NCBI GenBank assembly: GCA_018062515.1
Contig: JAGOSC010000005.1
Span: 880-64,879 of the forward strand
Direction: 5' to 3'
DNA length: 64,000 bases
From: Candidatus Omnitrophota bacterium
GTDB lineage: Bacteria; Omnitrophota; Gorgyraeia; Zapsychrales; Zapsychraceae
Below the pieces are notes generated by a model that had not been told where the DNA came from, made no database searches, and was given only the letters and a program-made list of their open reading frames with translations. The position numbers and the translations under genes were made by a program. Shown one piece after another: positions 21,823 to 53,908 of this stretch (position 1 is its first letter; the number at the start of each line of letters is the position of its first letter).

Positions 21823-21851
21823 TTGACAATGGATCGACTTTAATGTATACT
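21823..21851 (+). promoter_or_regulatory. Sigma70-type promoter for the giant-gene operon
   Basis: TTGACA (21823-21828), 17-nt spacer, TATACT (21846-21851). It lies ~170 nt upstream of the ORF A ATG in the only sizeable intergenic gap before the 30-kb cluster. Confidence 0.6.
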
Positions 21852-23090: not shown

Positions 23091-26000
23091 CAAAAACCGA
23101 AGATAATGCGACTTTAGCAGAATTGATCACACGAGAGAAGACCACTCGTTTAGCCGCTACGGATCAGGCAGCTTTAACTCCGAAAGGAAACCAGATTCGA
23201 GCTGATTTCGCTTTATTAGAAGACTTAACCGATGAAGATGCTCCAAAGGTACAAAAACCGATTGAAAAAATTGAAGACGCGCAGATAGCTGTGGACCCTA
23301 ATTGGGTTGAGGACTATTTGGAAAATCTTTTCCCTGAAAACAGCTTTCCTAAACCAGTCAAACAAGAACCAGTCATTATCAGCAAAGAAAGAAAAGAATT
23401 AGAAGACGAATTAATCGCCAATCGTTCTCAATTCTCGGGCTCTAGAATAAATCGGAATATTAAGGAAAAAACAGGGCTTGACGTTCCCGAGGACACTGTC
23501 GATTATTTCGTCGAGCATAGTGGAACCCTCCCTGGATTAAATCACCGTGCTGACCGTTCCCAGGTTATAGGGCAACTTATCCGCAATCATCGTCCTTATG
23601 AAATCTCTAAATTATTTGCCTTATCAGAATCCAAAAATTTTGAAAGAAAATATTATCCTGCCTGGATCCAAGCTTTATCAAAAATATTTACTTTTTTGAA
23701 AGATAAAAATTCAACCATTAATACAGAATTAACCGTTCAAGTCAATTTAGACGGAATTCTTTTAATTAAAGACGGCTCGGGAGAAGAACTCAAGGCGTTT
23801 CAGAAATTGGATCAATTGCACACGGAAAAAGCTTCCGTCGGTGCACTGGCCCTTCAAATTGTCAAATTATTAACCCATGATTACGACGGTTTGGAACTCA
23901 CCAACACTAAAGAATTGTCAGATGATTTAGTATCCATCTTTAATATTTTCGGAATCAAGCCGACGGTGATTAATGATGCGTGGATGCAAACTGTCCTGGG
24001 ATACGGAGATTCTTCATTAAATCTTCAAGCTCTAAAAGAAGGCGTTGAAGTAACTGAAGCTGATGTCGACACTTATCTTTTCCGTCTGGACACAGAAAAA
24101 AGTTTAGCTCGTCAAGCCGGAGAGACTGTATATCTTTCTACGCGCTCAGAAGCCGTCGCTGAAATGATTAAAGAAAATAAATATGATTCTGCTCTTTTAG
24201 CCTCCATCGATGAAAAGGCTTTAACACCGGAAATTCTTACTGCTTTTGGCGGAAATGTAACGGCCGCACAAACGGTCGTGGCCGAGCGTCTTGAGGCTAT
24301 GCGCGTCGCTGATCCGAATGCCACCGTCGAGCAAGCTGTCGCCCGTTTAGCTTGGGAATATAAGCCGCGCGATATTCAAAACGTTTTTCCTGGAGACAAC
24401 TGGAAATTTATGTTTTTGGCCGCCAAAGCCGGCATGAAAGCTCCGATTCTTTTATTAGACTTGGAAGACGCAGTTGCGACAACTCGTAAAGAAATTGCCC
24501 GCGGTGTTATCGTACAATTGATCCGGGCTTTTAAAGGTGAAGGATTAACACAAGATGAATTTGATTTCTTGCAGAAGAACGCGCTTCAGGCTGATGATGA
24601 AAAATATCCGATGACTAGTTTCTTTACACAAAGTCTTGTCGACGGAAAAACTGTTTATACGTTAAATCCTGAAAATCAATTCCATAAAGATCAAATGGTT
24701 CTTTTCCGCCCGAATAATTTAAGAACAAAGTGGTCGGCAGGGGATTATTCTCAAGTTTTTCGTAAAGTCGGTCATTTGGTAGACGGTATTTATATGCCTA
24801 AAGTAGAAGGCCCAGAAGATATCAAAATCGGCGCGTCTATTTTACGCGCCATTCAGAAAGAACAAAACTGGGTCGTTGGTCGTCACAAAATTTTTGTTTT
24901 AACCGAACTTCCCGGCGCTGTTTTGACCGCTGAAAATATTTTAAAAATAGCTCCTGAAGTTGAAGAAGTTCAATTAGGAGTCGTCGATTACACCGCAGCG
25001 ACGGGTGGAAAAAATCAAGTTCAAATCGAACAATTTCCATTTATGCGTTATGCCTTATTACGCTTGGTTGAAGCCGCTAATAATATAGGGAAATCCGCCG
25101 GTTTAGGTATTACCGTTCAATTTACTCCAGAAGCAACAGCCGAGGATACAGTCAAGGCTATTAATATTGGCCTTCATCGCAAATGGAGCGTTCATCCAGC
25201 GCATTTGAAAGGCATGGAATCATTCATCGGAAAATTCCCAAAGATTGTCCGAAAAGATATTCAATATGATGAACTACAAGGATTTGATTTGGTACAGCTA
25301 GATCAATACGCTAGTGAAAGCCGTCCAATTTTAGCTCCTAAAGTTTTAACACCTAAAGATGTGGTTTTATCCAGAGCTGTGGTCACTGTTTCATCCGGAA
25401 ATATTGATGGGCTTAAAAAAGCTCTGGATTCAAATGCTGATACTATTATTTTGGATTTCGGGAAAAAAGAAAATTTGTCTGAAATTAAAAAAATATTAGT
25501 TCAGGCTAAAACAACAAAGAGTATTCTTGTTGTCGATGAGCTTGATTCCCTACAATCAATTAAACAAATTGTAACTGAGTTAAATGGATATTTTCAAGGA
25601 TTTAACCTGAATAACATACAGAATGCATCAACAGTAAGAGATGTGGATGGATTGTTATCAGAAGCAGAAAGTGATTTGGGATTAAACGCAGGCAGCTTAA
25701 AAATTGCCGTCAGCTTTAATGACCCGCAAGTGGTCGAGGAGCAATCCCGCTATCTCGGCACCGATCCAGCTAAAGCTCTTTTGTATTCCAGTCAACGCCT
25801 CAGCTGGGCCATCTTGAATTTGCCTACCATGCCGACTGAAGATTTAGATGATCCGGAAACGAGAGGATACAATTATTATCATTCTTTATTTATTGCCATG
25901 ACCGCTCATGCCGAAGTCGATTCCATCGACGGTTATAGCGCGGATGAGAATTTAACAGAACAAGTTGCGACCTCAGCCATTTGGGGATTTCAAGGAAAAC

Positions 26001-29000
26001 TAGCTAACTTGAATCAAGTTGATGAAATTACTGAAGCCATGAGCCCGCAGCGAGCTGGAATTATGCCAGAATTTTCTACTCCAGAGGAACGTAAAGCTTG
26101 GTTAGCTACTGCCGAAGGAAAAATTTATGTAGCACGTTGGAAAAATTCATTAGAACGAGATTTGGAACTGATGGATCTGTATGCCGAAGCGGATCAAGAA
26201 CGGCAATTAGGTGCGGTAGGTTATAAGGATCCTTTAACCGGCGCTATTGAAATCGTCGACGCTGCTTCAGCTCGAATTCCATTCCGACAATTAGAAAAAG
26301 CTTTAAAGACAAATCAATTAACCGATACGGAAAAAGTTCGATATGCAAAATCACGAGAAAAATTACTTTTAGCCATGCGTCCAGGCGGACGAGAAGGCAG
26401 CGGTGAAAAAGTTTTTGCCGGGCAAAAAATTACAGCTCCGGCCATTGTGATGCGTCCTTGGATGGTTAATGCGTTTGCTAAAGATGGCGATCAAAACCGT
26501 TATCATTTAGATGAAGCTTATGCCAACGCCTCAAAATTTAAAGGATTAGTTGCTCATGGATTATTGACGGTAACTAAGGCTTTAAGTTCTTTAAAAGCTC
26601 AATTACCGGCTTATAAAATTGAAGAAGTCGACGACGCTAAATTCTTAGCTCCTGTACGCTTTAATGATACGATTACCCCGGTCATTGATGTTACGAGTGT
26701 CGACAATGAAAAAGCCAATGTAAAAATTAGTGTAATCAATCAAGACGGAAAAACAGTCAGTGAAATCAAAGTTTTATTAATAGAAAGCACTGATTCTCAA
26801 ATCATTCCAAAAATTAATAATGATTCTTTAAAATCAGCAGAAAAGGTGCCGGCTTCTATTCCGGCCGTCATTTACGATTTTACTGATCCACAAAGTCCTC
26901 GAGAACAAACGTTCAAGCAGGAAATCACATCCAGTTATTTAGAAAATGTTCAAGGATCTAATTTGATTACAAGCCGGGATTTATTAAGTCAATTAGCTGC
27001 CTTTAAAATGATGGCCGGTACTTCCGCCAATGCCGTCCCAGGCCACATATTATTGAATGCAACAAATGTAAAATTCGGAGCTGAAATTCATTTAGGTGAT
27101 GTATTGACCGCCAAAGCTACTGTTCCTGCAGCTGATCAAATTAAATTGACTAAAGACAATCTTCCTAAAGTTCCAGTCACGATTGAAATCACGAATCAAA
27201 ATGGAGAAATGGTTTTAAAAGGACAAGTATTAAAACTCATGGAACCGGGTAAAGATCGAGCGATGCTGGCCAAAAAACCATACCTTCTGCCAAGAGGAAA
27301 AATTGTTACATCGCCGGATGAACTTCCAACACATATGGAAGCATATGTAGTCCGACGCGGTGAGCATGGTGACCCAATTGATGCGTTTAAAAAATCCATT
27401 CAACCCGTTCCCGATGTGGGCGATTATGAAGTCCTTGTCCAAGTTATGGCTGGAGGATTAAATTTTAATGGAACATGGGCCCTTCAAGGTCTTCCCATTT
27501 CTCCATTTACTTATCCTTTGAATAAATTCCACGATGAACAACGCTTAGGTAGTGATGCTTCAGGCATTGTTGTGGCCGTTGGCAAACATGTCACACAATA
27601 TAAAATTGGTGATCAGGTTGTTATGGCTACCGGTGAAGATGACCGCGCTGAAAAAGATCCTGATCATGGCGATACCATGCAAAAACGAACGTTTGTTATC
27701 ACCGGGTATGAAACTCCGGATGGAACGTTCGGTCAATTTGTCGCTTTGGATGAACGTCAAGTACATCCGAAAGAGGCAAATATGACTTGGGAACAAGCCG
27801 CCAGTTATCATTTAGTCGCCGACACAGCTTGGCGAGATATGAAATACAAACTGGGTGTTAAAAAGGGAGATACTGTATTAATCTGGGGGGCATCAACAGG
27901 AGTAGGAGCTTTTAATGTCCAGATCGCTAAATATTTAGGAGCCAAGAATATTGTGGCGGTTGTTTCCAGTGCTTCAAGAGCGGAACAAGCCAGAAAATTC
28001 GGGGCCACTCAAGTGATTAATCGAACTGAACTTCCTAAAATTTTGGGATACAGTGATGCTGAAATTTGGGGTGAACTCTCTAACAATCCCCAAAAGCAGC
28101 AAAAACAAATTGAAATGTTAAATAAGTTCAGAGAATATTTTCTTTCTCTAACGGGTGGTGAATTAGCCGATGCCGTTGCGGAACAAATCGGCCAAACAAC
28201 TTATCCAATTAGTCAATATTTAGCTAAAGATTCCGGAAAAGTCACTCATTTTGCCGGAACATTTGGTTTCAAATTTACCTTTATGGGAAAAGATTTACCG
28301 TTGGATGAGAATACAAAAAAGCAAAAAACGCCACTTCAAATGTTAGAAGAAGCTGGTGTACGCGACGCTAAACGAGTGCTGATATATGGTGCTGATCAAC
28401 TTTCTAAAGAAATTTTTGAGGAAGTTAAAAAATACAGCACTAATATTGCTTTCATCGTTAAAAGCCAAGAAGAACAAAATACAGTCGAAAACTGGGATTT
28501 AGAAAAGACATATATCAAAGGTATTGTAGATTTAAATCCGATTTCTTTTCCTGAAGATATGCCTACACCTCCTCATCCAGACATCCCGGCAGATAAACAG
28601 GCAAAAAATCTTGAAGAATTTAATGAGTATCGTATCAAAGTACTGGATCCAATCCGAGGATCGGTTGTAAAAGCTTTAGGCGGTCAGCCCGACTTAATTG
28701 TTGAAAGAGCGGGGAACAAAAATACTTTGGATATCAGCGTATTTGTCGTGCGTCCTCATGGCGTCGTAACATATGTTGAATCAACAAAAGGAAAACGTTT
28801 AGTCTTTGATGCCCGATTTATTTGGATGTTCCAAAAGCAAATTTATCCTTGGGTTCTTGGGACTCATTATGCGAACCACACACAAACCAAGGAATTAAAT
28901 GATTTAGTTTTAAAAGGCATCATAAGCGTACCTGAACCCGAAGTATTTTCTTGGGATGAATTACCCTTAGCCCAGCAGAAAATGTATGAAAATAAATTAA

Positions 29001-29941: not shown

Positions 29942-29957
29942 TAAGGGACGCAGCTAA

Positions 29958-42200: not shown

Positions 42201-45200
42201 TGGACTCCTCCAATACAAGAGAAGCCAGAAATTTTTGATCAAGATATACGGAACTTTATCGAAACACAAAAAAATCTTATTGGGAATAGCTATCAAGAAA
42301 TTTATGACCGAGGGATTGCCCGCGGATATTTCTTGGCTGGCGACATGCCATATGTTAGACATTTGCATGTTGAAGAGCGCCCCGGGGAGTATCCATATAC
42401 ACGCGGAATTATTAAGCAGCGACCAGAAAAATTAAATAACATTAGTGGATATTTATTAAGAGAAGCTGGGATGGATGGAATGCAGGAATTGGCTTTGAGT
42501 TTATTTGCTGCTAAAAAGGAAATTGAAAAAGGAAATACTCCCAGCGAACGTGCAGACATTGCCAATCAAATCCGTATTGTGCTTTCTTCCAGCGATAATT
42601 TTATGGAAGAAACCGCTCGAATATTTTTAGCACGTAGAATGTGGGCTGAAATGCTCAAAGAAATGGGAATCACCGATGAAAATGCATTGCAATTGATCGT
42701 CGGTGTTAAAACCGATGCAACCACATACACGGAAGATAAACATTGGCTGAATATTAGCCGCGGCACACGTCAAGCATATCAAGCTTATTTAGCCGGTGTT
42801 GATCCGCAAGATATTATCATTACCCGTTTTGATGCTCCTTATGGCCATACAGATCAAACTCGATTAGCCGAACAAATTGCCAAAGATACTCTCGATGTAT
42901 TCCGTTATGAATTACCCAAAAAAGTTCAAAATCCTTTAAGCGGAATGTTTGCTTTAGAAGCTAAGATCGAAACAATGGAAGGTGAATTAAAAGCTGAATT
43001 AACAAAACTTGAAGATTTGTCATCTGATAAAAAATCAATATCTATTTCCGCAGAATCTGAAATGAAAGCCCTTATACCTGTTACCAATGTTACTGGATCC
43101 ACGGGTGTTCCAACTTGGTTAACTCCGTCATTAGCGAATTATCTGATCACTTCACTTTTACATTCGCAGGCTGTTCAGCTAGCCAAAGTTACCGCCGGAT
43201 TGACTCCAAAAGTAGGCGAGAATATTAAAACCAGTTCGACGAAATATTTTCCGCCAATGAATACCGAGGCCATGGGTATGAAACTTCTACCGCCATCAGA
43301 ACAAGTCACCATTGATGCCTTAGCCTCTGATTCAGAGGATTTAAGAATTGCAATTGCGGACGCATGGTTCAATCAAGCTGCAAATTTATATACAAAACTT
43401 TTAGGCGCGCTTCATCTTAATAACAGTAATCGTCATATTACAAAACTCCTCAGAGGTTTAGCAGCGGCTAATTTAAGTGTGAATGCTGAACAATTTTCAA
43501 AAATTGCTGAAAAATGGTCAATTATTTCTGAAGGCGATCAATTCACTATTCAGACGGATAATGGATCACAACTGAATATTATCCGTGATACTGATCACCA
43601 AGGGAAAATGGGCATTGAATTGGCGGGAAATGTTTCAGAAATAATGCGGTATGTTTCACAGTATACACTAAAAAATAAAATGACTAAAAAAGATAAATTA
43701 CGTATTCTCGTCGCTAAACCAGGACTTGATGGTCATGATGTCGGTGCACGAACAATCGCCAATGGCTTTCGTGACGCCGGCTTTGATGTAATTTATACGG
43801 GATTGCAAAACACCCCGGAACAAATTGTGGAAACAGCTCGCCAAGAAAATATTGATGTCATTGGGTTAAGCATTCTTTCTAACGCTCATAATTCGATTGG
43901 ACCAAAAGTCGCTAGCCTTTTAAATAAGAATGGAATGGATGATGTTTTTGTCGCCATGGGCGGAATGATTCCTGACGATGATCAGCGTAATTTATTTCGA
44001 AAAAGCGCGGTCAACGCAATCTATATTGCCGGTACAACCATGCAAAAGATTGTTGACGATATCAACCATTGGAATGAATGGCGGGGGAAATCAGATAAAA
44101 TAAAAATCACAAATGATCATCAGTTTACGGCAACATTATTCGATGGAAGTTCAGTCGAAGTTGTTGTCATCAATAAGGAAATTCCAACAGCTAAACCGGT
44201 CACGGACGTAGAAGAAACGGAAATTCCTCAAACTGCTTTAGCCGTGCCAACAAAACTAGGCCCATTGCATCGATCAAATATTCCCGTCGTTGAAGGCGTT
44301 TGGAGCGATGATCCAGAAATTCGAAACCGTGCTCTACAACACTATGCTTTAGCTGGAGACATATTGTTAGAACAGGTCATAAAAACGAGTCCAGTACTGG
44401 GACGATTTATTATTCCGGTTTCGAATGCCGTTTCTCCTCATATTGAACACGCCACTGTTGCCTCAGCTGGAATTGCTTTAACACCCGAACATTTTGAACA
44501 AGCCTGGGAGGCTAATGGAAACCCTCATCGTTCCAATGTACCGGAAGACGTCCGTGCAGAAGAATTTGAAGTTATAGTAACAATGCCCGATGGAAGTAAG
44601 CGAATTTTGGATATTCTTCGTGATAAAAAGGATGACTTTGAAGCTGGCGATATTGTCCGAAGAAAGATAGACGTCTCACACACGTTGGTTGAAGCATGGA
44701 ATAAAAAAGCTAAAACCAACCCTAAAGCCAAAGATCAAGAAGCAGAATGGTTAAATATGACCATAAAACAAATTCTTAATCCGCCGTTTGCTTCAAATAT
44801 TTTTCCAGCTAATGCGATTGTGATAAAGGTTCAAAACAGAAATAGTGAATTGGACCGAGGTATTATTGAACTTGATCAAGAATTAAATATTTACGTGAAG
44901 GTTCTCGACGTCACCCCATTTAATCAACAAACTGTCGACGGAAAATCATTCATTAAAGCGGATGTCATCGTTAAAGATAAAGAAGAAAACATTCTCATCG
45001 ACAGTATCGTCACAGTCATGAAACCGCTGACCATCGCTCGTCATATTAATGAATACAGTGAAGCGGTGATTCAGCAAGTTGAAGTTTGGACCGACGACAT
45101 TCAAGCGGCTCACAAAGCGATTTCCGCAGCGGCTAAAGATAAAACAAATGGTATTAATGTCGTACTGCCTGTCCGTGACGGAGCGAATGGAACAAAGGTT

Positions 45201-45560
45201 TTCTTTACGATGGTGACAATCGAAGGCGGCGTCAAAGTTCTCGTTGAGTTAATTCAAAATCCAAAAGCCGCGGTTGATAACGCTTCGCTCAGCCAATACG
45301 GCGGTATCGACCTTAATCCAGCGCATTTGGATTTGCAAATCAAGCGTGATGGACGAGGAATTCCGCTTCCGGTTAATCAACAGCCAATCATCAATATGCA
45401 TATCGACGGTTTTTATCCGATTATTATTGAAATGACGCCAGTGAATTTGCCGATGTTGCTCGGTTTCGCGGATGAAAATATGCCTGCGGATGAAACAGAT
45501 GATTATTCTCAATCAGAATTAAACGCCAGAGAACCTGAAGATTTAAGTTATTTAAATTAA
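35142..45560 (+). CDS. Giant fusion protein C (3472 aa): leader + shared N module + acyl-CoA synthetase + partial ACAD + ACAD + B12-dependent acyl-CoA mutase barrel + truncated second barrel + B12-binding domain + unassigned region + shared C module
   Basis: The GTG start directly abuts the ORF B TAA, with GAGGAA upstream. 10.4-kb open frame. Motifs are in the sub-features. Confidence 0.88.
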   Translation: MIIQFKKFQLKFTYKFLCTVINIAFISTCVLPPSYAQVLSLPQPGTMLNVSPVYTPPMIKGLTIDQENPLHFQFIIDTGNEQYKDNDQLREESTRLIKYFLASLTVPENEMWVNLSPHEKDRIIPDGFGQTEMGRDLLAQDYILKQLTASLIYPEKELGAEFWKKVHDRAWKEFKTKEIPLDTFNKVWIVPEKAVIYEHERSAYVLESHLKVMLEEDYQALISNTSSTSADNQKLKDDNRQLTASIMKEIIIPEIEREVNEGKNFTNLRQIYQSMILATWYKMNLKESLLGQIYVDQNKLIGIDLDDKNVKDKIYAQYIEAFKKGVYNYIKEDYDPDQQKTVPRQYISGGFSTVGKDNATLVDLVGREIIKSSAGYVSADQYKRISKGLKPSGDQFRTDVQLLENGNNGIINADQSMLVKIDDALQKNPSQKVHTVKGYTPAGNPIEDVLTYQDISDQSNQFAHVLKNAGIEKGDRVAVMSPVSGLEMIASLGIWKAGAVRVPFKTQWTSNEIKKYLTQTTPEAMVILNVYYDQHLLSILNEFKDLKVYIISSGETISSTPHVMTFQNSLINQTTDFLNISSDPRDLVQLAISTGTTGESKIVKQTQENFYFSTQEYSEWLDDAPQGPVVSTLPPGTYGSHSILGTVLRGRPLYIVPRLPKNQTTDEYTQTLSETLKRTNAKILFGVPTQFQALAMTGEKFPGLIGLSRGAALRDVKQLFESVTGGRVIEGYGLTEGTSSVTNPINRDKPGTVGIPSKDTTFKVINPSTQKELPIGEEGELVLKGPQVMAGYWEDPVGTKAAFTEDGFLRTGDLGSIDKDGYIKITGRLKDIIISGGDNVIPSEVEKIIKTNAAIEEVTVVGISDPGRFPDDPAFAELVEHWGEVVVAFVVPKKGMNTLNLEPSIREFAKKNLAAYKVPKKVVVLNKLPLLGDLFKIDRQQLIRGDNDNAVLVIPSAIKNIENIKAKLVLNFMINETLRNGLISQIDGEKLIPSVAIDDEQITVAKKVSDEEYELSGTKAAVVNGGRASFYIVFAQLNGKSKAFLVDNPKGITKKSVPTMGLAENNIAQVQFNRVRAKLITDNLDDSEILKAVQNKENKIIRALAISEAQRIYKMGEKYAAERRAFGQSINKFPSLKRLMDGIQTDVENINASPNPTAMLVDIANRVLQIFAARGFENNTPAVKIWREAQALHAIVTYRQSLTKTTPENISLDPEEVFKKGSWEDFGLTPDQISLKSKIRNFAENIVAPMYEELDRDGQYPLSILKKMGDAGITKPGYPKEVGGEEADTLSWAIVVEELVKAAPAFGIFSGVPHTASVPILKSGTPEQKEIVAQVVRGEIPLSYGQSEPHSGSDVGGIKTTAHLTKRDGVEGYVINGEKIWIGSATVAPWLVLLAKTGEATDRDLNKFAFFLVPFRDQDGKFQKGIEVHEMDLLGMRGIGNSHIIMKDVFIPKENILGEVGKGFKTAMHAMDSGRIFVSSRGLGVISHAVENAKEALKEALRENPNLPHAQNYISQIDLMEAERLSVRAMLQKTSDMNDRGKRMTYETAIMKWIAGEVAADIAQRSYDLIHTISYNPSRWAHSERVLRDSRQIRIGEGTPQIMQRIAGLKIRRQMKKKLTHLSSDIILQDALKQILDEKENDSVPTRLNILFNIALAAYLKAIKDGQFDITPVEPYGIELDLANLEALRMRVNDFQKMLTQMAQSGQPFPYGNAVQIFMNQKYVEAETIVHNIFTQLSFKTELEEIKDYAMIASLQVEELRKRFKETGGAITREEAQQIVKGAKPEEVAVVLEQIAYQSSLYGPVNDPAINRVDPKIYESLIGIPGQAPFVRGLFPSVTQRAAGRWPTVRRYGSYGTAEESNANLKKQLEAGVTGFSIAFDLPTQNGYDTGHPLAVGEAGRVGIAINTLQDMEDLFDGLPLEKISTSMTINPTAPILFAMYVAAARKKGVPDKLIAGSVQNDSLKEYTARNTYVLPYKGMMRMTTDVFRWTKDNLPRFNTITISGYHIRESNVDAVKEIAFTITNALQYVAELKRKGLSRDEIAGSLATMAWFINLKMNTFEEVGKLRALRRVWSKIVRDGLGIKPENVTDPKLKDVYQKATNARVATWSGGSEVRLPYATTLNFARNAIRAFNAPLSGVQSWDGAAFDESIGIPTDFAQEEAMLRLFAAQSETGLMELDDPFGGSYFLEAETNRIEQGIWNELSELSQKDSFLDVLQFMVDERTRLTDQDRIDLEGGQRKIVGYNISTDGADAYPQPKARPMNTENFDVKQGKRLKKVLETRDNDAVQSALDELEKALKNETENVLPYIFKAVEVYATVGEISDRMRRIYGASDGKTPWNAQPVWKDLKDKEWTPPIQEKPEIFDQDIRNFIETQKNLIGNSYQEIYDRGIARGYFLAGDMPYVRHLHVEERPGEYPYTRGIIKQRPEKLNNISGYLLREAGMDGMQELALSLFAAKKEIEKGNTPSERADIANQIRIVLSSSDNFMEETARIFLARRMWAEMLKEMGITDENALQLIVGVKTDATTYTEDKHWLNISRGTRQAYQAYLAGVDPQDIIITRFDAPYGHTDQTRLAEQIAKDTLDVFRYELPKKVQNPLSGMFALEAKIETMEGELKAELTKLEDLSSDKKSISISAESEMKALIPVTNVTGSTGVPTWLTPSLANYLITSLLHSQAVQLAKVTAGLTPKVGENIKTSSTKYFPPMNTEAMGMKLLPPSEQVTIDALASDSEDLRIAIADAWFNQAANLYTKLLGALHLNNSNRHITKLLRGLAAANLSVNAEQFSKIAEKWSIISEGDQFTIQTDNGSQLNIIRDTDHQGKMGIELAGNVSEIMRYVSQYTLKNKMTKKDKLRILVAKPGLDGHDVGARTIANGFRDAGFDVIYTGLQNTPEQIVETARQENIDVIGLSILSNAHNSIGPKVASLLNKNGMDDVFVAMGGMIPDDDQRNLFRKSAVNAIYIAGTTMQKIVDDINHWNEWRGKSDKIKITNDHQFTATLFDGSSVEVVVINKEIPTAKPVTDVEETEIPQTALAVPTKLGPLHRSNIPVVEGVWSDDPEIRNRALQHYALAGDILLEQVIKTSPVLGRFIIPVSNAVSPHIEHATVASAGIALTPEHFEQAWEANGNPHRSNVPEDVRAEEFEVIVTMPDGSKRILDILRDKKDDFEAGDIVRRKIDVSHTLVEAWNKKAKTNPKAKDQEAEWLNMTIKQILNPPFASNIFPANAIVIKVQNRNSELDRGIIELDQELNIYVKVLDVTPFNQQTVDGKSFIKADVIVKDKEENILIDSIVTVMKPLTIARHINEYSEAVIQQVEVWTDDIQAAHKAISAAAKDKTNGINVVLPVRDGANGTKVFFTMVTIEGGVKVLVELIQNPKAAVDNASLSQYGGIDLNPAHLDLQIKRDGRGIPLPVNQQPIINMHIDGFYPIIIEMTPVNLPMLLGFADENMPADETDDYSQSELNAREPEDLSYLN
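36440..37980 (+). other. AMP-dependent acyl-CoA synthetase/ligase domain
   Basis: TYQDISDQSNQFAHVLKNAGIEKGDRVAV, ISTGTTGESKIV (a divergent SGTTG.PKG), EGYGLTEG, LRTGDLGSIDKDGYIKITGRLKDIIISGGDNVIPSEVE, AAYKVPKKVVVLNKLP. Confidence 0.75.
38000..38700 (+). other. Partial/degenerate acyl-CoA dehydrogenase-like unit (middle and C-terminal parts only)
   Basis: YELSGTKAAVVNGGRASFYIVFAQLNG..AFLVD, PTMGLAENNIAQVQFNRV, AERRAFGQSINKFPSL. No clear N-terminal helical domain. Confidence 0.45.
38800..39980 (+). other. Acyl-CoA dehydrogenase domain (complete)
   Basis: FAENIVAPMYEELDRDGQYP, MGDAGI, SYGQSEPHSGSDVGG, INGEKIWIGSA, DLLGMRGIGNSHIIMKDVFIP, IGEGTPQIMQRIAG. Confidence 0.75.
40590..42140 (+). other. 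Adenosylcobalamin-dependent acyl-CoA mutase catalytic (TIM-barrel) domain, methylmalonyl/ethylmalonyl-CoA mutase type
   Basis: PGQAPFVRG, WPTVRRYGSYGTAEESNANLKKQLEAGVTGFSIAFDLPTQNGYDTGHPLAVGEAGRVGIAI, ISTSMTIN, LKEYTARNTYVLP (Arg retained where I recall isobutyryl-CoA mutases having Gln), ISGYHIRESN, YATVGEISDRMRRIYG. Confidence 0.8.
42300..42990 (+). other. Truncated second mutase-barrel-like segment (beta-subunit-like remnant)
   Basis: PGEYPYTRGI jumps directly to LREAGMDGMQELALSLFAAKKEI...NFMEETARIFLARRMWAEMLKEMG...TDATTYTEDKHWLNISRGTRQAYQAYLAGV. It is colinear with the start and the last third of a mutase barrel; the middle is missing. Confidence 0.5.
43690..44060 (+). other. Cobalamin-binding (B12) Rossmann-like domain
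   Basis: LRILVAKPGLDGHDVGARTIANGFRDAGFDVIYTG contains the D-x-H-x-x-G motif (43728-43745). Then IDVIGLSILS and FVAMGGMIP. Confidence 0.8.
45295..45475 (+). other. Shared C-terminal module, copy C
   Basis: YGGIDLNPAHLDLQIKRDGRGIPLPVNQQPIINMHIDGFYPIIIEMTPVNLPMLLGFADE. A 26-nt run (45339-45364) is identical to 29699-29724 in copy A. Confidence 0.85.
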
Positions 45561-45566
45561 TAAACC

Positions 45567-46600
45567 ATGAAAAAGAAAATTTTCCTTATGAAAAAGTTTG
45601 TGTCTATATTAATTCTTTGCGCATTTACAATGAACACCATTGTTCCGCCGAGTTTGGCGCAGAGCATATCGTCAACGATCCTACCGCCGGTAGGTTCAAT
45701 GCTAACCATGACACCATCGTTTGTTCCGATACAAATCAAGGGTCTAACCATCGATCCCGAAAATCCTTTGCATTTTGAATTTATCATCGATACCGGCGAT
45801 TCAAAAATTGTAAACGATGAAGAATTGCGCGCCGAAACAACAAAACTGGTTAAATATTTTCTTACATCGCTGACCGTTCCGGAAGAAGATATGTGGGTCA
45901 ATCTTTCTCCTTATGAAGGAAATCGTATTGTTACCGACGGATTCGGACAAACGCAAATGGGTCAGGATCTCTTAGCGCAAGATTATATTCTAAAACAAAT
46001 CACCGCATCATTAATGTTCCCTGAAAAAGAGTTGGGCAAAAAGTTCTGGGATAAAATTTATCAGAGAGCAGAACAAGAATACGGAACTAAAGATATTCCA
46101 ACGAATACATTTAATAAAGTATGGATCATTCCGGAAAAAGCCACGGTTTATGAGCATGACGGCAGTGTTTTTGTTATCGAAAGCCGTTTAAAGGTTTTAT
46201 TGGAAGAAGATTATTTTGCCCAAAGAAAATCTGAAGGAGCCTCCGTCGATCCAAATAAATCTGTGTATACCGACATCGTTCGAGAAATTTTAATTCCGGA
46301 GATTGAAAAAGAAGTCAATGAAGGACAGCATTTTGCCAAACTGCGTCAAATTTATAATGCGATGATCTTAGCGACTTGGTATAAAACCAATCTGCAAAAA
46401 TCCGTCTTAGGACAAATTTATGTTGATCAAAATAAGTTGGAAGGCATTAACGGCGAGAATAAAAACGCTAAGTCAGATATTTATAATCAATATCTCAAGG
46501 CTTTTAAGGCCGGCGTTTATAACTATATTAAAGAAGACTATGATTCGACAACTCGGTCAACGATTCCCCGACAGTACTTCTCCGGTGGATTTGCCGCTAC
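45567..46600 (+). other. Leader plus shared N-terminal module, copy D
   Basis: MKKKIFLMKKFVSILILCAFTMNTIVPPSLA|QS, LPPVGSMLTM..GLTIDPENPLHFEFIIDTGD..FLTSLTVPEEDMWVNLSPYE..FGQTQMGQDLLAQDYILKQ..KLRQIYNAMILATWYK..AFKAGVYNYIKEDYD..PRQYFSGGF. Confidence 0.85.
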
Positions 46601-49600
46601 TTCAGATAAAGCGGCATTATCCACCGTAGTTAAGGAATCAAACCTGGGTCAAAACAACACGCCGTTATCCGACGAGGACTCAGCACTCATCGCAGATGCA
46701 TTATCCGCGCGAGGCAAACAGTTTAATACAGATATCCTCCTTAGAGAAGCCGTCTCGGGGATAACTTCCGGCGATGAAGCTATTCTTAGTTCTTTTACTG
46801 AAGATGAAATTGTGTCACGAATTCTAAATACTCCATATGATCCGATAAAAATTGGTCAGCAAATGCGGGCATGGTACGCTGATGGTAACCTCGACGCTGA
46901 TATCTTAAAAGCAACCTTGACCAATTTAAGCCGCCGTGTTGTGTACGTAAAAAGTACAGCTGATTTAAAAGACTATGAAAAAATGAAGCCTTTTTTGATC
47001 AAGACCTGGGCGCTGCTTAAAGAAGCGAATGACTCTCAGTATACCGAAAGCATTTCGATCATTGAGAGAACCATGGCCTACTCCTTATATATTTCGGATC
47101 CAAAATTATTTTATGCCGAACCGATTGAATCCATGGTCGCTGATTTAAGAAAAATTAAAGACAGCACCGCGGATGAACGTATTAAATTTGATGAAGCTTG
47201 GACACTGATTTCCAAACGCTACAGCCAAAAAAATCCGCGAGATATTTTTTATATCGCCCGGGCGATGAAACGTCCCAAGGCCTCAGATATTGTTAAAAGT
47301 TCTTTATTTAAAGATTTCATGGAATTGCGGGATGCCAAAGATCCGCTCGACCCTCAAAAAAATGAACGTTACACGCCGACGGAAAATGAGATTCAAGAGG
47401 CCATGTCGATCGGGTTCAAAGATAAATTAGAAGCCCGTGAATATGTCATTGCCAAACGAGACGCCCAATATGATGACGCATCCGTACTTACGGGAATAGG
47501 GACTTTTGTGGATCCAAAAACCGGAAAAGAGACAAAAGTTATGGTTGTTGCTTTACAAAATGGAAGTGATATTAAGGAATTATTTGAAAGAAATGCCGGT
47601 TTAAACCGCCCGTGGGGATATTGGAAAGCGATCCGCGCTTTTCGTTTGGCGGAATCTACAGAGTATAGAATTCCAATTGTCACTTTTGTTGACACGAAGG
47701 GGGCGGATAACACATTACCGTCGGAAATCGCCAATCAATCGGGCGTGGTTTCCTACGCCATACAAGTTCAACAAGAGCTGACGGTTCCGTTTATTTCCAT
47801 CATCAATATCGACGGCGTAAGTGCTGGAGGCATGGTTGTCACTCAAGGCGGCGCATTATATATGATGGATTATTCGAATCGATATTTAGCTGCTCCGGCA
47901 GGGTCTTTAGATATTATCGGCAAAGCAAAAACGACTATTCCCGTCGCTGAGCAACGCGGCGTGAAAGATACAATCGGAATGCAAATCATTGAAAAAGAAG
48001 TGCAAAGTGTGTGGGGAGATGCTTTTCATGCGGACGCGAAAAGATCATTGGAAGAATTAAAAACCATTTCCGGAATTATCCCTGAAGCGCTCGGTGGTGC
48101 GCATCGATTCCCTGAACTTTCTTATGAAATGATAGGCGATGTCATTCACAATTACTTAAAGGAAAATGCCAACAAAACAGTTGCGCAGCTTAAAGCCCAG
48201 CGTCATGACTTTTTCCGTCGATTAGGTGGAATTCCTGAAAAAGATTTTAGAATCGTCGACGATCAAGATGTCCCAACCTTGACCAAATCCATCATCACAC
48301 CGGATGAATTTGCACAGTTGGTGGAAACTATTCTTGACAATAAACAAAATACCGAACGTATGCTCCATGCGTATCGCCAGTACACTTTTACACTGAAATC
48401 AGCGAAACAAAAAAAAGAGGTTGTCGCTGTATGGATGAAAGTTTTTAGAGCTAACCGCAGCTGGTTTGATAATCGCTGGATGGTCAAAGTTTTAAATGCT
48501 TCGTTAACAGAATTTGAAAAGAAGGGAACGCAAAATGCTAAAACTCTTAAAGAGGCGATGATCAAGAGTTTCTTTCCGGAACCGCGCAGTATTGCTGATC
48601 GTCTCGAACAATTTGTCGACCGCAAAAAAGATGGAAGTTTGGAGATTATTGAAGAATTAAATGCGAATTTAGCCGAGACACCCATCATCGATTTTGATGA
48701 AACCATTCATGAAGCCTATCCCTTTTTGAAGATTGATGGCCAGGATATTGCGGCCAAGTTTGACCAATTCCGCAAATTAACCGGCTCATTAACCGGCGTT
48801 TGGACCGGTTATGTTAAAATCGGCGGAGTAAAGACGATGCTGGTTTTAAAAGATCCACGCTGGTTGAACGCCAGCGCAACAACGGCCGTCATCGGCGAGA
48901 AAGTGACCCGCGCCTTGGAAGATGTGCGTCAAAAATTTGATAAAACCAAAGAAAAAATTCCCGTGATCATGTTGACGACGGCGAGCGGTGCTCTTCAGCA
49001 AGAAGGCCAGCGCGCTATGGACCCGTTAAATAAAAAACTCGCTGGATTGGTTGAATTGAAGGAACGAAATATTCCCGTCGTGATTTTAGGTGCCTACGAA
49101 GTTTTCGGTGGTGATAGCGCCTCCGACGCGACATATCAAGATGCTGATCTTTTACTATTAGAAAAAGGGACAAGAAAAGGATTCACCGGCCACCCGACGC
49201 TGACCGGAGAAAATGATCGACGTAAGAAAAAAGGTGTTAAAGATACTTCGCAAAATGAGGTTGTGCCATTAACCGTTTTGCCTTTTCCATATCAGACTGA
49301 TCAGTTCTTAGACCGGCTTGGATTTATCGATGGAATTGTGACTGTCGAGCAAGAAACGCCTTTATTACAAGCTTTCTTACAAGACGTGACTAATAAAGAA
49401 CTGACTGTTAAATCCGAAGAAATTAAAGAACTTTTAAAAACCTTTAAAGACAAACGTGAAATGCGAGTAAAGCTTGTACGCGCCTTGGAACGAAAACCAT
49501 TTAAGACGACGTTTCAAAATGGAAATGAGGCTGAAGTTTTTAATCTGCGAAATAAGGCAAGACTATTGATGAATCAGCCAGGCATTGGCTGGCGTTATGA

Positions 49601-53840: not shown

Positions 53841-53869
53841 TTGACGATGTGTACAATATCAATTATATT
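53841..53869 (+). promoter_or_regulatory. Candidate sigma70 promoter for the serpin gene
   Basis: TTGACG (53841-53846), 17-nt spacer, TATATT (53864-53869). This argues against the GTG 53849 start given in the ORF track. Confidence 0.4.
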
Positions 53870-53908
53870 ATTTACACATATCCACGGTCTAAACGCTTAA
53901 AAAAATTC

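What the first reader, a model, noticed from the sequence alone, without database searches (positions are those of the whole stretch)
24360..49330. Collectively the cargo domains cover most steps of an ethylmalonyl-CoA / propionyl-CoA-type route
The families present are: Ccr-like (A), a possible epimerase (C, tentative), an ECM/MCM-type mutase (C), ACADs as candidate methylsuccinyl-CoA dehydrogenases (B, C), a double MaoC hydratase (A), malyl-CoA-lyase-like (A), carboxyltransferase (D) and acyl-CoA synthetase (C). That is the enzyme-family list of the ethylmalonyl-CoA pathway plus propionyl-CoA assimilation, as established in alphaproteobacteria and actinomycetes. Many of the same families recur in the 3-hydroxypropionate bi-cycle, where one known tri-domain fusion (propionyl-CoA synthase) encloses intermediates. 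Placing all of them on four co-translated scaffold proteins suggests a channelling metabolon for reactive or toxic CoA esters. Substrate identities are inferred from family membership only.
Basis: inference. Interest (0 to 1): 0.8.

Follow-up and report, generated by a model that had tools for sequence, protein, structure and literature searches.

The report
Exported giant proteins carrying acyl-CoA pathway
Four neighbouring giant genes of an uncultured Omnitrophota bacterium each place acyl-CoA enzymes between the same two carrier modules; together the enzymes match the core of the ethylmalonyl-CoA pathway, yet a secretion-type signal and a total lack of cysteine suggest they work outside the cytoplasm, which would be very unusual.

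Summary

The reductase is a true enoyl-CoA carboxylase/reductase with its CO2-pocket residues, plus an insertion otherwise seen in propionyl-CoA synthase. The B12 mutase keeps the residues that bind a carboxylated acyl-CoA but forms its own clade. The lyase is closest to malyl-CoA lyases.

The same families recur together in five other loci. One looks like a plain operon (L027) and one has ordinary-sized genes plus a fusion (L031). So the cargo mirrors a real pathway module of ethylmalonyl-CoA type.

Not supported: the ACADs as methylsuccinyl-CoA dehydrogenases, and a propionyl-CoA-carboxylase-type carboxyltransferase.

The scaffold is not specific to CoA esters. The N-module defines more than 8,000 protein clusters, those with source names almost all Omnitrophota, carrying glycolysis, glyoxylate-cycle and other pathway sets. 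It has no fold relative in the PDB and follows a Sec-type signal peptide. The mature giants contain no cysteine in about 9,800 residues, against 0.83% in neighbouring genes. Family members keep almost only catalytic cysteines. This points to active, exported enzyme arrays rather than a cytoplasmic metabolon for toxic CoA esters.

The parts
21823..21851 (+). Candidate sigma-70 promoter (TTGACA-17-TATACT, 11 of 12) about 170 nt upstream of gene A. Gaps between A-B, B-C and C-D are 16, 0 and 6 nt, consistent with one operon.
   Evidence: a consensus match only
22019..29941 (+). Gene A (2640 aa): signal peptide, N-module, lyase-hydratase block, PCS-type ECR, C-module, acidic tail.
22019..23218 (+). 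A signal-peptide-like segment (aa 1-37, ...PPQVSA/Q) plus carrier N-module (aa 38-400).
24206..27328 (+). A aa 730-1770: a captured whole-gene lyase-hydratase block. It holds a malyl-CoA-lyase-like HpcH barrel with LDLEDAVA (aa ~800-1040), a lyase C-terminal part plus a second degenerate barrel (aa 1040-1460), a MaoC hot-dog with GDQNRYH (aa 1460-1590) and a second hot-dog (aa 1591-1770).
27317..29038 (+). A aa 1767-2340: enoyl-CoA carboxylase/reductase domain. CO2-pocket positions are kept (NFN, GYETPDG, GTH), the NADPH loop reads GASTGVG, and it has the ~170-aa PCS-type insertion.
29651..29842 (+). A C-module (aa 2545-2608), followed by a 32-aa acidic tail.
29958..35141 (+). Gene B (1727 aa): signal peptide + N-module (to ~31208); VLCAD/FadE-type ACAD with catalytic Glu (FEGA) plus helical extension (31410-33197); second ACAD whose catalytic Glu is replaced (IGGS) plus extension (33210-34802); C-module (34860-35054).
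35142..45560 (+). Gene C (3472 aa): signal peptide + N-module (to ~36413), then the cargo listed in the following rows, then the C-module (45294-45482).
36432..37961 (+). C aa 431-940: AMP-forming acyl-CoA synthetase (ANL family; motifs STGTTGESK, YGLTE, TGD). The best PDB match is malonyl-CoA synthetase, but specificity is not resolved.
38148..39971 (+). C aa 1003-1195: partial, degenerate ACAD. C aa 1225-1610: full Bcd/SCAD/AcrC-like ACAD with catalytic Glu (GEGT).
40599..44096 (+). C aa 1820-2985: AdoCbl acyl-CoA mutase. Active barrel (Tyr89, Arg207, Tyr243, His244 and Glu equivalents kept; DLPTQ as in ECM), then a second degenerate MutA-like barrel (aa 2341-2850), then a B12-binding domain with DGHDVG (aa 2851-2985).
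44421..45269 (+). C aa ~3094-3376: methylmalonyl-CoA-epimerase-like VOC domain, split by a ~130-aa insertion (aa ~3167-3296). GEG-HH-IAF of epimerases reads GEG/EA-IQQ-VEV.
   Evidence: profile hit 6wf6 E=3.5e-9; the AF2 model was too poor to use
45567..52088 (+). Gene D (2173 aa): signal peptide + N-module (to ~46787); AccA-like (47193-48227) and AccD-like (48672-49328) carboxyltransferase halves; a Pfam-silent block with an HD-like motif seen by eye (49842-49976); cNMP-binding domain (51075-51317); C-module (51810-52001).

Best explanation
The four genes form one apparent operon in an Omnitrophota genome. Each encodes a member of a very large carrier-cargo family with this layout: Sec-type signal peptide, ~360-aa N-module of unknown fold, variable enzyme cargo, ~65-aa C-module, short acidic tail.

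The cargo here is a functionally linked set of catalytically competent acyl-CoA enzymes, derived from a gene cluster that also exists outside this carrier family. The most likely chemistry is an ethylmalonyl-CoA-type core:
1. The ECR domain (A) reductively carboxylates an enoyl-CoA (crotonyl- or acrylyl-CoA).
2. The epimerase-like domain (C) inverts C2.
3. The B12 mutase (C) rearranges the carboxylated acyl-CoA.
4. An ACAD (C or B) oxidises the product to an enoyl-dicarboxyl-CoA such as mesaconyl-CoA.
5. The double hot-dog hydratase and malyl-CoA-type lyase (A) hydrate and cleave it to glyoxylate plus propionyl-/acetyl-CoA.
6. The ligase (C) activates a free acid, and the AccA/AccD-type carboxyltransferase (D) serves a (methyl)malonyl-CoA step.

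Enzymes that normally work as oligomers are present as an apparently intact copy followed by a degenerate copy (ACAD, mutase barrel, lyase barrel, hot-dog). These probably act as built-in pseudo-dimers.

The N- and C-modules, not the CoA chemistry, determine where the proteins go. The signal peptide and the complete purge of cysteine indicate they function outside the cytoplasm (envelope, cell surface, or host/prey-facing), where shared carrier modules could co-localise them.

Shown: the domain families, the motifs, the recurrence of the set in other loci, the signal-peptide features, the cysteine exclusion.
Inferred: the substrates, the order of steps, co-assembly, the location.
For: Architecture:
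- N- and C-modules shared by A-D.
- N-module family of 8,252 clusters at 50% identity; the module is N-terminal in all 150 listed matches.
- A single C-module lies a median of 29 residues from the C-terminus in 225 proteins.

Cargo identity:
- Ccr equivalog E=4e-103, with CO2-pocket residues as in a synteny-defined Ccr and the PCS-type insertion.
- Lyase best matches are malyl-CoA lyases 4l7z, 5ugr, 6kin and 4l9y, with LDLEDAVA kept.
- Double hot-dog with Asp/His kept.
- Mutase keeps Tyr89, Arg207, Tyr243, His244, Glu and DxHxxG, and shares DL(P/S)TQ with a ccr-linked ECM, not the DLATH of MCMs.
- Epimerase profile hit E=3.5e-9.
- Catalytic Glu in two ACADs.

Functional linkage:
- Orthologous or shuffled fusions in L005 and L004.
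- L027 operon ECR-KASIII-ACAD-mutase-lyase/hydratase, and the L031 cluster with a lyase-ECR-epimerase-hydratase fusion, both with normal cysteine content.
- L018: one ORF of more than 5,257 aa with 3HCDH, ECR, mutase, epimerase, ACS, lyase-hydratase and ACAD.
- The A 730-1770 block equals a whole free-standing ~1,010-aa gene of Methylomirabilota.

Activity and location:
- Signal-peptide features in 162 of 166 members.
- 0 Cys in ~9,800 mature residues against 0.83% in 25 other ORFs of the window. A Poisson expectation of ~81 gives P about e^-81.
- Family giants 0.038% Cys; many of the survivors are recognisable catalytic Cys (GAPDH SCTTN, ICL KKCGH, PPDK, UDPGDH).
- Cysteine exclusion is documented for exported proteins (PMC2823432).
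- Enzyme domains in larger Omnitrophota giants were predicted to be extracellular (bioRxiv 10.1101/2023.11.21.568195).
Against: - The mutase is only 30-39% identical to ECM, MCM or HCM references and forms its own clade (bootstrap for grouping with ECM 0.05). Its HxQT motif is altered.
- The ACADs resemble Bcd/SCAD and VLCAD far more than Mcd 6es9.
- The carboxyltransferase is AccA/AccD-type rather than PccB-type, and no biotin carboxylase or BCCP was found.
- The epimerase-like domain has Gln in place of the His metal ligands, and an insertion.
- No thiolase, 3-hydroxyacyl-CoA dehydrogenase, crotonase, ETF or MeaB lies in the window.
- An extracytoplasmic location is hard to reconcile with the need for ATP, CoA, NADPH, FAD re-oxidation and AdoCbl.
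- Consecutive steps sit on different polypeptides, and co-assembly is not shown.
- The rest of the genome could not be examined.
Confidence: 0.55

Rival explanations
1. The cargo is a 3-hydroxypropionate-bi-cycle-like or propionate/glyoxylate module rather than an EMC route. The ligase, hydratase and PCS-type reductase would make propionyl-CoA from 3-hydroxypropionate. The carboxyltransferase, epimerase and mutase would take it to succinyl-CoA. The lyase and hydratase would condense propionyl-CoA with glyoxylate to give mesaconyl-CoA.
For: - The reductase shares the insertions specific to the PCS reductase domain.
- The best lyase match is the Chloroflexus trifunctional MCL 4l7z.
- The carboxyltransferase is of acetyl-CoA-carboxylase type.
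- The epimerase profile hits methylmalonyl-CoA epimerases, and the mutase keeps the carboxylate-binding Arg.
- In L004 the mutase, B12 domain and carboxyltransferase are fused together with MeaB.
Against: - No malonyl-CoA reductase or CoA-transferase domains (Smt, Mct) were detected.
- The three or four ACAD domains have no role in that cycle.
- The hydratase belongs with the lyase as one captured gene, not with the reductase.
- The hydratase is MaoC-type, whereas PCS uses a crotonase-fold dehydratase.
- The CO2-pocket residues of a carboxylating ECR are kept.
- L027 has a canonical Ccr-sized ECR in the same cluster.
Confidence: 0.2
2. The cargo is ordinary fatty-acid or short-chain acyl-CoA catabolism (ligase, ACADs, hydratase), plus a methylmalonyl-CoA branch for propionate or succinate fermentation (mutase, epimerase, carboxyltransferase). 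It would not be a single EMC-like route.
For: - The ACADs are generic FadE/VLCAD- and Bcd-like, and the ligase matches long-chain and malonyl-CoA ligase families about equally.
- Mutase, epimerase and carboxyltransferase are the trio of the methylmalonyl-CoA pathway.
- SdhA/SdhB genes lie near the L005 cluster.
Against: - No thiolase or 3-hydroxyacyl-CoA dehydrogenase lies in the window.
- This reading leaves the ECR and the malyl-CoA-type lyase unexplained, yet these are the most consistently co-clustered partners of the mutase and ACAD in L027, L031, L018, L004 and L005.
- The carboxyltransferase is not the 12S/PccB/MmdA type used in those fermentations.
Confidence: 0.12
3. The enzyme-like domains are not working enzymes. 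They are structural or decoy building blocks of a secreted coat or adhesin, so the pathway-like composition has no metabolic meaning.
For: - Signal peptide, cysteine-free sequence and a predicted extracellular location fit a surface coat.
- Many cargo copies are degenerate: second ACAD, second mutase barrel, second lyase barrel.
- Cofactor supply outside the cell is problematic.
Against: - At least one copy of each family read keeps its catalytic and cofactor-binding residues.
- Across the family, many of the few cysteines left are the catalytic ones of GAPDH, isocitrate lyase, PPDK and UDP-glucose dehydrogenase. That implies selection for catalysis.
- Cargo sets are coherent by pathway and match gene clusters found outside this carrier family.
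Confidence: 0.08

Closest known systems
Ethylmalonyl-CoA pathway core of Alphaproteobacteria and Actinomycetes (Ccr, Epi, Ecm, Mcd, Mch, Mcl1/Mcl2)
   Same: The same six enzyme families are present: an ECR with CO2-pocket residues, an MCE-type epimerase, an AdoCbl mutase with the Tyr/Arg that bind a carboxylated acyl-CoA, ACADs, a double hot-dog hydratase, and malyl-CoA-type lyase barrel(s). The same set also occurs as an operon in L027.
   Different: - The mutase lies in a separate clade, 30% identical to a ccr-linked ECM.
- The ACADs are not Mcd-like.
- The ECR carries the PCS-type insertion.
- Lyase and hydratase are one pre-fused ~1,010-aa unit.
- The entry enzymes are absent from the window.
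- All domains are cargo on signal-peptide-bearing, cysteine-free carrier proteins.
Propionyl-CoA synthase (PCS) of the 3-hydroxypropionate bi-cycle (PDB 6eqo). From own knowledge: a ligase-dehydratase-reductase fusion that encloses acrylyl-CoA.
   Same: It is a multi-enzyme fusion of CoA-ester enzymes. A's reductase aligns along the whole PCS reductase domain, including the ~170-aa insertion and the 'IY..GTH' insertion that stand-alone Ccr lacks.
   Different: - The ligase is on another polypeptide (C).
- The hydratase is MaoC-type and belongs to the lyase block.
- No evidence for a closed reaction chamber was obtained.
- The N-terminal half of A's reductase is closer to Ccr (E=9e-72) than to PCS (E=3e-56).
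Omnitrophota giant proteins ('Archaeovorins', at least 30,000 aa) described by West-Roberts et al., bioRxiv 10.1101/2023.11.21.568195
   Same: Same phylum. These are very large proteins that contain central-metabolic enzyme domains (TIM, PGI, FBPase, PGM, FBA, PPDK) predicted to be extracellular.
   Different: - The proteins here are 1.7-3.5 kaa with one defined layout (signal peptide, N-module, cargo, C-module).
- No transmembrane-rich or HEAT/GT regions were found.
- The searches I made of that paper found no mention of acyl-CoA enzymes or cysteine, and its N-terminal passages do not describe these modules.
Cellulosome scaffoldin/dockerin systems and other extracellular multi-enzyme assemblies (own knowledge)
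   Same: Secreted proteins in which a shared non-catalytic module is attached to varied enzymes. This would allow co-localisation outside the cell.
   Different: No cohesin or dockerin domains were detected in A-D. The cargo is cofactor-dependent intracellular-type metabolism rather than hydrolases. Assembly through the N- or C-modules is hypothetical.

Membership tests
Ethylmalonyl-CoA pathway | Crotonyl-CoA carboxylase/reductase (ECR family with the Asn/Phe-Glu/His CO2 pocket) | tested here: met
   TIGR01751 E=4e-103, 345 bits against a cutoff of 378, with the match split by an insertion. NFN, GYETPDG and GTH are kept, as in a synteny-defined Ccr.
Ethylmalonyl-CoA pathway | Ethylmalonyl-/methylmalonyl-CoA epimerase (VOC fold) | tested here: met
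   Family level only. A profile of 4 copies hits methylmalonyl-CoA epimerases: 6wf6 E=3.5e-9, 6bu2, 3oa4, 1jc4. The His ligands are replaced by Gln and the C copy has an insertion. Activity is unknown.
Ethylmalonyl-CoA pathway | Mutase belonging to the ECM clade | tested here: inconclusive
   It forms its own clade with the L005, L018 and L031 mutases; bootstrap for grouping with ECM is 0.05. It shares DL(P/S)TQ with the single ECM reference and keeps Tyr89/Arg207.
Ethylmalonyl-CoA pathway | Methylsuccinyl-CoA dehydrogenase (Mcd-type ACAD) | tested here: not met
   Mcd 6es9 scores E about 1e-30, against 4e-61 (2z1q) for B and 7e-49 (5ol2_C) for C.
Ethylmalonyl-CoA pathway | Mesaconyl-CoA hydratase (double MaoC hot-dog) and malyl-CoA/beta-methylmalyl-CoA lyase (CitE-like) | tested here: met
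   Family level: MaoC plus a second hot-dog. The lyase's top PDB hits are malyl-CoA lyases, with LDLEDAVA kept. Substrates were not tested.
Ethylmalonyl-CoA pathway | Entry enzymes: thiolase, acetoacetyl-CoA reductase, crotonase | tested here: not met
   None found in A-D or the flanking genes. Related loci carry 3HCDH (L018), a KASIII-like enzyme (L027) and ECH (L004).
Propionyl-CoA carboxylase branch | PccB-type carboxyltransferase with biotin carboxylase and BCCP | tested here: not met
   The carboxyltransferase matches AccA (E=6e-38) and AccD (E=5e-11). There is no Biotin_lipoyl or biotin carboxylase domain and no convincing AMKM motif.
Propionyl-CoA synthase (PCS) | Single chain with ligase, crotonase-fold dehydratase and reductase forming one chamber | tested here: not met
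   The ligase is on C and the reductase on A, and the hydratase is MaoC-type. Only the reductase insertion is shared.
3-hydroxypropionate bi-cycle | Malonyl-CoA reductase and the CoA transferases Smt and Mct | tested here: not met
   No such domains appeared in Pfam or NCBIfam scans of A-D. Some Pfam-silent blocks remain.
Sec-exported proteins showing cysteine exclusion | N-terminal signal peptide (basic n-region, hydrophobic core, small residues at -3 and -1) and depletion of Cys relative to the proteome | tested here: met
   162 of 166 members have the n/h/c pattern ending PP(S/G)YAQ. 0 Cys in mature A-D against 0.83% in neighbouring genes; family-wide 0.038%. No signal-peptide predictor and no experiment were available.
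Substrate-channelling metabolon | Physical assembly of sequential enzymes with protected transfer of intermediates | not testable with these tools
   Only co-expression and shared modules are shown. The model of the minimal carrier gives no information on oligomerisation.
Archaeovorin-type giant proteins | At least 30,000 aa, many TM helices, HEAT and GT domains, N-terminal C39 or S8 peptidase | tested here: not met
   Sizes are 1,727-3,472 aa. Outside the N-terminus, the only hydrophobic segments passing the 19-residue threshold lie near the C-termini of B, C and D. None of those domains was found. Criteria taken.

The most novel reading that the evidence does not exclude
Omnitrophota export whole blocks of cofactor-dependent central metabolism on a phylum-specific carrier of unknown fold. 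The blocks include an ECR/B12-mutase acyl-CoA route here, and glycolysis, the glyoxylate cycle, glycogen and PPDK modules elsewhere. The enzymes have been stripped of every non-catalytic cysteine. They would therefore work outside the cytoplasm: in an envelope compartment, on the cell surface, or inside or against a host or prey cell. That would be an extracytoplasmic, possibly host-directed, metabolism with no described precedent. A further, less supported possibility: with ECR, epimerase, mutase, ACADs, hydratase and lyase together, the module could be part of a natural ECR-based CO2-assimilating route.
Probability: 0.4. Interest if true: 0.95.

Novelty: new variant of a known kind. Interest (0 to 1): 0.85.

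Why it matters
1. It points to a variant EMC-type acyl-CoA module (PCS-type ECR, a new mutase clade, a pre-fused lyase-hydratase, a divergent epimerase) in uncultured anaerobe-rich lineages. These include Omnitrophota, an Elusimicrobia MAG and two unclassified MAGs, where this chemistry was not expected.

2. The 'scaffold' belongs to a family of more than 8,000 clusters that carries much of Omnitrophota central metabolism. Published metabolic reconstructions of the phylum may have counted these exported-looking, cysteine-free copies as ordinary cytoplasmic enzymes.

3. Signal peptide, cysteine purge and retained catalytic cysteines together make a directly testable prediction about where these enzymes act. 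Omnitrophota are suspected parasites or predators, so this bears on how they exploit hosts.

4. The intact-plus-degenerate tandem domains and the modular carrier are natural examples of enzyme-array design, which could interest synthetic pathway engineers.

Tried and rejected
- **Epimerase by standard methods.** Pfam at E<=0.05 and E<=10, NCBIfam at E<=0.01, and a single-sequence PDB search of concatenated silent blocks all found nothing. Only the four-copy profile worked.
- **AF2 of the C tail block.** With a 2-sequence alignment it gave mean pLDDT 34 and was not used for fold search.
- **Block 'Y' (A 1591-1770) as the epimerase.** Rejected: it is a second hot-dog domain.
- **Labelled ECM references.** A tblastn of the plasmid collection gave about 35%-identical, mostly 'scpA' or unannotated hits. 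I defined one ECM and one Ccr by ccr-ecm synteny in Tritonibacter instead.
- **Papers on ECM signature residues.** The Erb 2008 paper is not held, and PMC2847961 had no residue table.
- **Literature on the carrier family.** Nothing found. Only West-Roberts touches on enzyme domains in larger giants.
- **Biotinyl domain.** The only 'VMKM' (D 1954) lacks the usual context and has no Pfam support.
- **Cobalamin riboswitch or other RNA elements near the operon.** None; only three tRNAs in the window.
- **Flanking genes.** None is related to acyl-CoA metabolism.
- **L018 as a control outside the carrier family.** Rejected: it is itself a cysteine-free giant whose N-terminus lies outside the fetched locus.
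- **NC10 neighbourhoods of the free-standing lyase-hydratase.** These gave only a PduO adenosyltransferase link.

Full report
**1. What is there**

The window holds four head-to-tail + strand ORFs: A 22019-29941 (2640 aa), B 29958-35141 (1727 aa), C 35142-45560 (3472 aa) and D 45567-52088 (2173 aa). A near-consensus sigma-70 promoter match lies about 170 nt upstream of A. The gaps between genes are 16, 0 and 6 nt, so they look like one operon of four separately translated proteins.

All four share a ~420-aa N-terminal region (48-57% identical) and a ~65-aa module near the C-terminus. No other copy of either module occurs in the window. The same B protein is also found on an independent Logan assembly contig. 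NCBI source names mark the contig as a 'Candidatus Omnitrophica' MAG contig of 64,894 bp. The flanking genes (ValRS, TauE, BrkB, TPR proteins, serpin, HTTM and others) have no link to acyl-CoA metabolism.

**2. Check of the domain list**

Pfam finds HpcH_HpaI, MaoC and ADH_N/ADH_zinc_N in A, and two ACADs in B. In C it finds AMP-binding, ACAD, MM_CoA_mutase and B12-binding. In D it finds ACCA/Carboxyl_trans and cNMP_binding. Scanning the silent stretches added a partial ACAD (C ~1003-1195) and a second partial mutase barrel (C ~2433-2625).

*Reductase.* It is not a generic MDR. It matches the crotonyl-CoA carboxylase/reductase equivalog TIGR01751 at E=4e-103. Aligned with a Ccr that I identified by ccr-ecm synteny in Tritonibacter (L003), it keeps the contexts of the CO2-pocket residues: NFN, GYETPDG, GTH. 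It also carries a ~170-aa insertion and a short 'IYPWVLGTH' insertion. These align only with the reductase domain of propionyl-CoA synthase 6eqo, not with stand-alone Ccr.

*Lyase.* Its best PDB matches are the malyl-CoA/beta-methylmalyl-CoA lyases 4l7z, 5ugr, 6kin and 4l9y, and LDLEDAVA is conserved. Its NCBIfam hits are a haloarchaeal malyl-CoA lyase, RipC/Ccl and CitE.

*Hydratase.* Iterative searches among the giants show that A 1591-1770 is a second hot-dog domain homologous to the MaoC domain. This confirms the 'double MaoC'. The Asp/His pair of the hydratase motif is kept (GDQNRYH).

*Mutase.* It keeps the equivalents of Tyr89, Arg207, Tyr243, His244, the Glu, and DxHxxG. That fits a substrate with a free carboxylate (MCM/ECM type) and not the ICM/HCM type.

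*Epimerase.* It was invisible to Pfam, NCBIfam and single-sequence PDB searches, and AF2 on a two-sequence alignment failed (pLDDT 34). However, the conserved tail block of C recurs in L005, L018 and L031. A profile of these four copies hits methylmalonyl-CoA epimerases specifically: 6wf6 E=3.5e-9 over residues 33-140 of 146, then 6bu2, 3oa4 and 1jc4. In all four copies the 'GEG-HH-IAF' histidines read 'QQ', and the copy in C has a ~130-aa insertion. So family membership is supported, but activity is open.

*Carboxyltransferase.* It matches AccA (E=6e-38) and AccD (E=5e-11), not the PccB type. No biotin carboxylase or BCCP was found.

*ACADs.* They are VLCAD/FadE-like (B) and Bcd/SCAD/AcrC-like (C). 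The structurally characterised methylsuccinyl-CoA dehydrogenase 6es9 scores far lower.

*Ligase.* It is a generic ANL-family enzyme whose best PDB match is malonyl-CoA synthetase.

**3. Are the active sites intact?**

At least one copy of each family I could read is intact: the ECR pocket and NADPH loop, LDLEDAVA, GDQNRYH, the mutase residues and DGHDVG, the catalytic Glu in B-ACAD1 (FEGA) and C-ACAD (GEGT), and the ligase motifs. I did not read the carboxyltransferase motifs.

Other copies are degenerate. B-ACAD2 has Gly for the Glu. The C partial ACAD, the second mutase barrel and the second lyase barrel (ILDFGKKE) are also degenerate. The recurring pattern is an intact copy next to a degenerate copy of enzymes that normally form oligomers. 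I read this as built-in pseudo-dimers (inference).

**4. Is the set a pathway?**

Comparative evidence says the domains belong together.

- L005 (another Omnitrophota MAG) encodes an orthologue of A without the ECR: N-module, lyase 70%, X 58%, MaoC 54%, hot-dog 54%, C-module. It also encodes an orthologue of C without the ligase.
- L004 encodes a PCS-type ECR, a protein with MeaB x2, mutase, B12 domain and AccA/AccD, and a protein with ligase, MaoC, HpcH and ECH.
- The whole A 730-1770 block equals, end to end (97% coverage, 44-48% identity), a free-standing ~1,010-aa gene. That gene is mainly from Methylomirabilota, with two HpcH barrels and a double hot-dog. In two NC10 genomes it lies beside a PduO-type cobalamin adenosyltransferase.
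- Scanning the flanks of 25 such loci found two clusters outside this carrier family, both with normal cysteine content. L027 has ECR (421 aa), a FabH/KASIII-like enzyme, ACAD, mutase and lyase-hydratase. L031 (Elusimicrobia MAG) has a mutase, a second barrel, a 2,162-aa fusion of lyase, PCS-type ECR, epimerase-like piece and hydratase, and an ACAD.
- L018 is one ORF of more than 5,257 aa holding 3HCDH, ECR-like, mutase, epimerase-like, ligase, lyase-hydratase and VLCAD-type ACAD.

ECR, epimerase, carboxyl-acyl-CoA mutase, ACAD, hot-dog hydratase and malyl-CoA-type lyase are exactly the core families of the ethylmalonyl-CoA pathway (established knowledge). This repeated clustering is hard to explain as beta-oxidation.

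Limits:
- In a small NJ tree the window's mutase groups with those of L005, L018 and L031. It is only 30-39% identical to ECM, MCM or HCM.
- It does share DL(P/S)TQ with the ccr-linked ECM, rather than the DLATH of three MCMs.
- Only one ECM reference was available.
- Substrates remain inferred.

**5. The scaffold is general, and it changes the interpretation**

*Size and range of the family.* A profile of the four N-modules finds 8,252 clusters at 50% identity, 6,516 of them at E<=1e-30. The module is N-terminal in all 150 listed matches. Where sources give names, they are almost all Omnitrophota.

*Cargo is coherent by pathway.* Examples:
- enolase + FBA + GAPDH + PGK
- FBPase + TIM + PGI
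- isocitrate lyase + malate synthase (± PEPCK)
- PPDK
- glycogen enzymes
- response regulators

*The C-module.* It occurs once, a median of 29 residues from the C-terminus. It is followed by an acidic tail with a recurrent [DE][LI]S[YF] motif.

*Signal peptide.* Of 166 members with complete N-termini, 162 start with a basic stretch, a ~15-residue hydrophobic core and PP(S/G)YAQ. That is a Sec-type signal-peptide pattern.

*Cysteine exclusion.*
- The mature parts of A-D contain no cysteine in ~9,800 residues. Their four cysteines all lie in the signal segment.
- The 25 other ORFs of the window have 76 Cys in 9,184 residues, or 0.83%. The expected count in the giants is ~81, so the Poisson probability of zero is about e^-81.
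- 120 family giants have 0.038% Cys.
- Free-standing homologues of the lyase-hydratase cargo have 0.41%.
- The recognisable motifs among the cysteines that remain are catalytic ones: GAPDH SCTTN, isocitrate lyase K(K/R/M)CGH, PPDK CGE(Q/H)G and UDP-glucose dehydrogenase GGYCIPKD.

So the cargo is under selection for catalysis and, at the same time, against free thiols. That is the signature described for exported proteins in bacteria (PMC2823432). West-Roberts et al. likewise found sugar-metabolic domains of much larger Omnitrophota giants predicted to be extracellular. Seymour et al. do not describe this family.

**6. Most likely mechanism**

See the best explanation for the step-by-step version. 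In short, this is an EMC-type acyl-CoA module, copied from a gene cluster that also exists outside this carrier family, and mounted on four carrier proteins. The carriers' shared modules and signal peptides probably send them to a common extracytoplasmic site.

- The fusion logic is real and recurs, but the carrier is not specific to CoA esters.
- Sequential steps are split between polypeptides: ECR on A, epimerase and mutase on C, ACAD on B or C, hydratase and lyase on A.
- The export signals argue against a cytoplasmic channel.

The main unresolved tension is how enzymes that depend on ATP, CoA, NADPH, FAD and AdoCbl could work outside the cytoplasm. Acting in or against a host or prey cell is one possibility, but it is speculation.

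**7. Verdict**

- Observation: confirmed.
- Interpretation: partly supported.
- Novelty: a new variant of known kinds (EMC-type module; multi-enzyme fusion; Omnitrophota giant proteins), with a substantial chance that the carrier system is a new biological principle.
- Interest: high.

Noticed in passing
window 22019-52088 (mature parts of A-D); family members P0001-P0240: Complete cysteine exclusion: 0 Cys in ~9,800 mature residues against 0.83% in the 25 other ORFs of the window. Family giants have 0.038% Cys, and the recognisable motifs among the survivors are catalytic cysteines (GAPDH, ICL, PPDK, UDPGDH).
   Followed up: yes
L018:1-17000 (MAG contig CAYLXA010000009.1): One ORF of more than 5,257 aa, running off the 5' end of the locus, with zero Cys. 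It carries 3HCDH, ECR, mutase, epimerase-like, ACS, lyase-hydratase and ACAD, but no N- or C-module. It ends in 'SELR' repeats, and the next ORF has a signal peptide followed by similar 'SELR' motifs. This may be a second, analogous carrier system in another lineage.
   Followed up: partly
window 49842-51317 (D aa ~1426-1917): An HD-like motif (YHNHMHN ... LFHDFH), seen by eye in a Pfam-silent block, lies upstream of a clear cNMP-binding domain. It may be a cyclic-nucleotide regulatory or phosphodiesterase unit on the carboxyltransferase carrier. Part of the block is conserved in P0236 and P0123.
   Followed up: partly
window 33210-34802, 38148-38726, 42162-43691, 25136-26398: Each oligomeric enzyme family appears as an apparently intact domain plus a degenerate duplicate: ACAD without its catalytic Glu, a partial ACAD, a second mutase barrel, a second HpcH barrel reading ILDFGKKE. 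These look like built-in pseudo-dimer partners.
   Followed up: partly
window 29925-29975 and 35120-35160: The A-B and B-C junctions share the sequence ACGCAGCTAAGTGATTA. This spans the stop codon (at A-B, an in-frame TAA just downstream of A's stop) and the GTG start. The 5' ends of B and C, with their upstream nucleotides, look like tandem duplicates.
   Followed up: no
C-terminal tails of 225 family proteins (e.g. window 29843-29938, 45483-45557): After the C-module there is a short acidic tail (median 29 aa) with a recurrent [DE][LI]S[YF] motif, often ending ...(S/L)(Y/L/I)LN. It could be a sorting or processing signal.
   Followed up: partly
L006:4657-9250 and L007:7512-13024: In two NC10 genomes the free-standing lyase-hydratase gene sits in a conserved neighbourhood: NUDIX, HhH-GPD, PduO-type cobalamin adenosyltransferase, HAD. 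This hints at a link to AdoCbl-dependent chemistry.
   Followed up: partly
L004 (P0123, P0126) and L005:18604-22026: Related Omnitrophota carriers also bear AprA-like methyltransferase (MT2) domains, two MeaB GTPases, a PPTase-like ACPS domain and an acyltransferase. The acyl-CoA module may therefore connect to malonyl/methylmalonyl-ACP chemistry in some genomes.
   Followed up: no
window 53849-55177 and 59502-61166: Downstream genes encode a bacterial serpin (Pfam E=3e-127) and an HTTM / vitamin-K-dependent gamma-carboxylase-like protein with its lumenal domain. Both are unusual in bacteria and apparently unrelated to the operon.
   Followed up: no
[not shown]
   Followed up: partly
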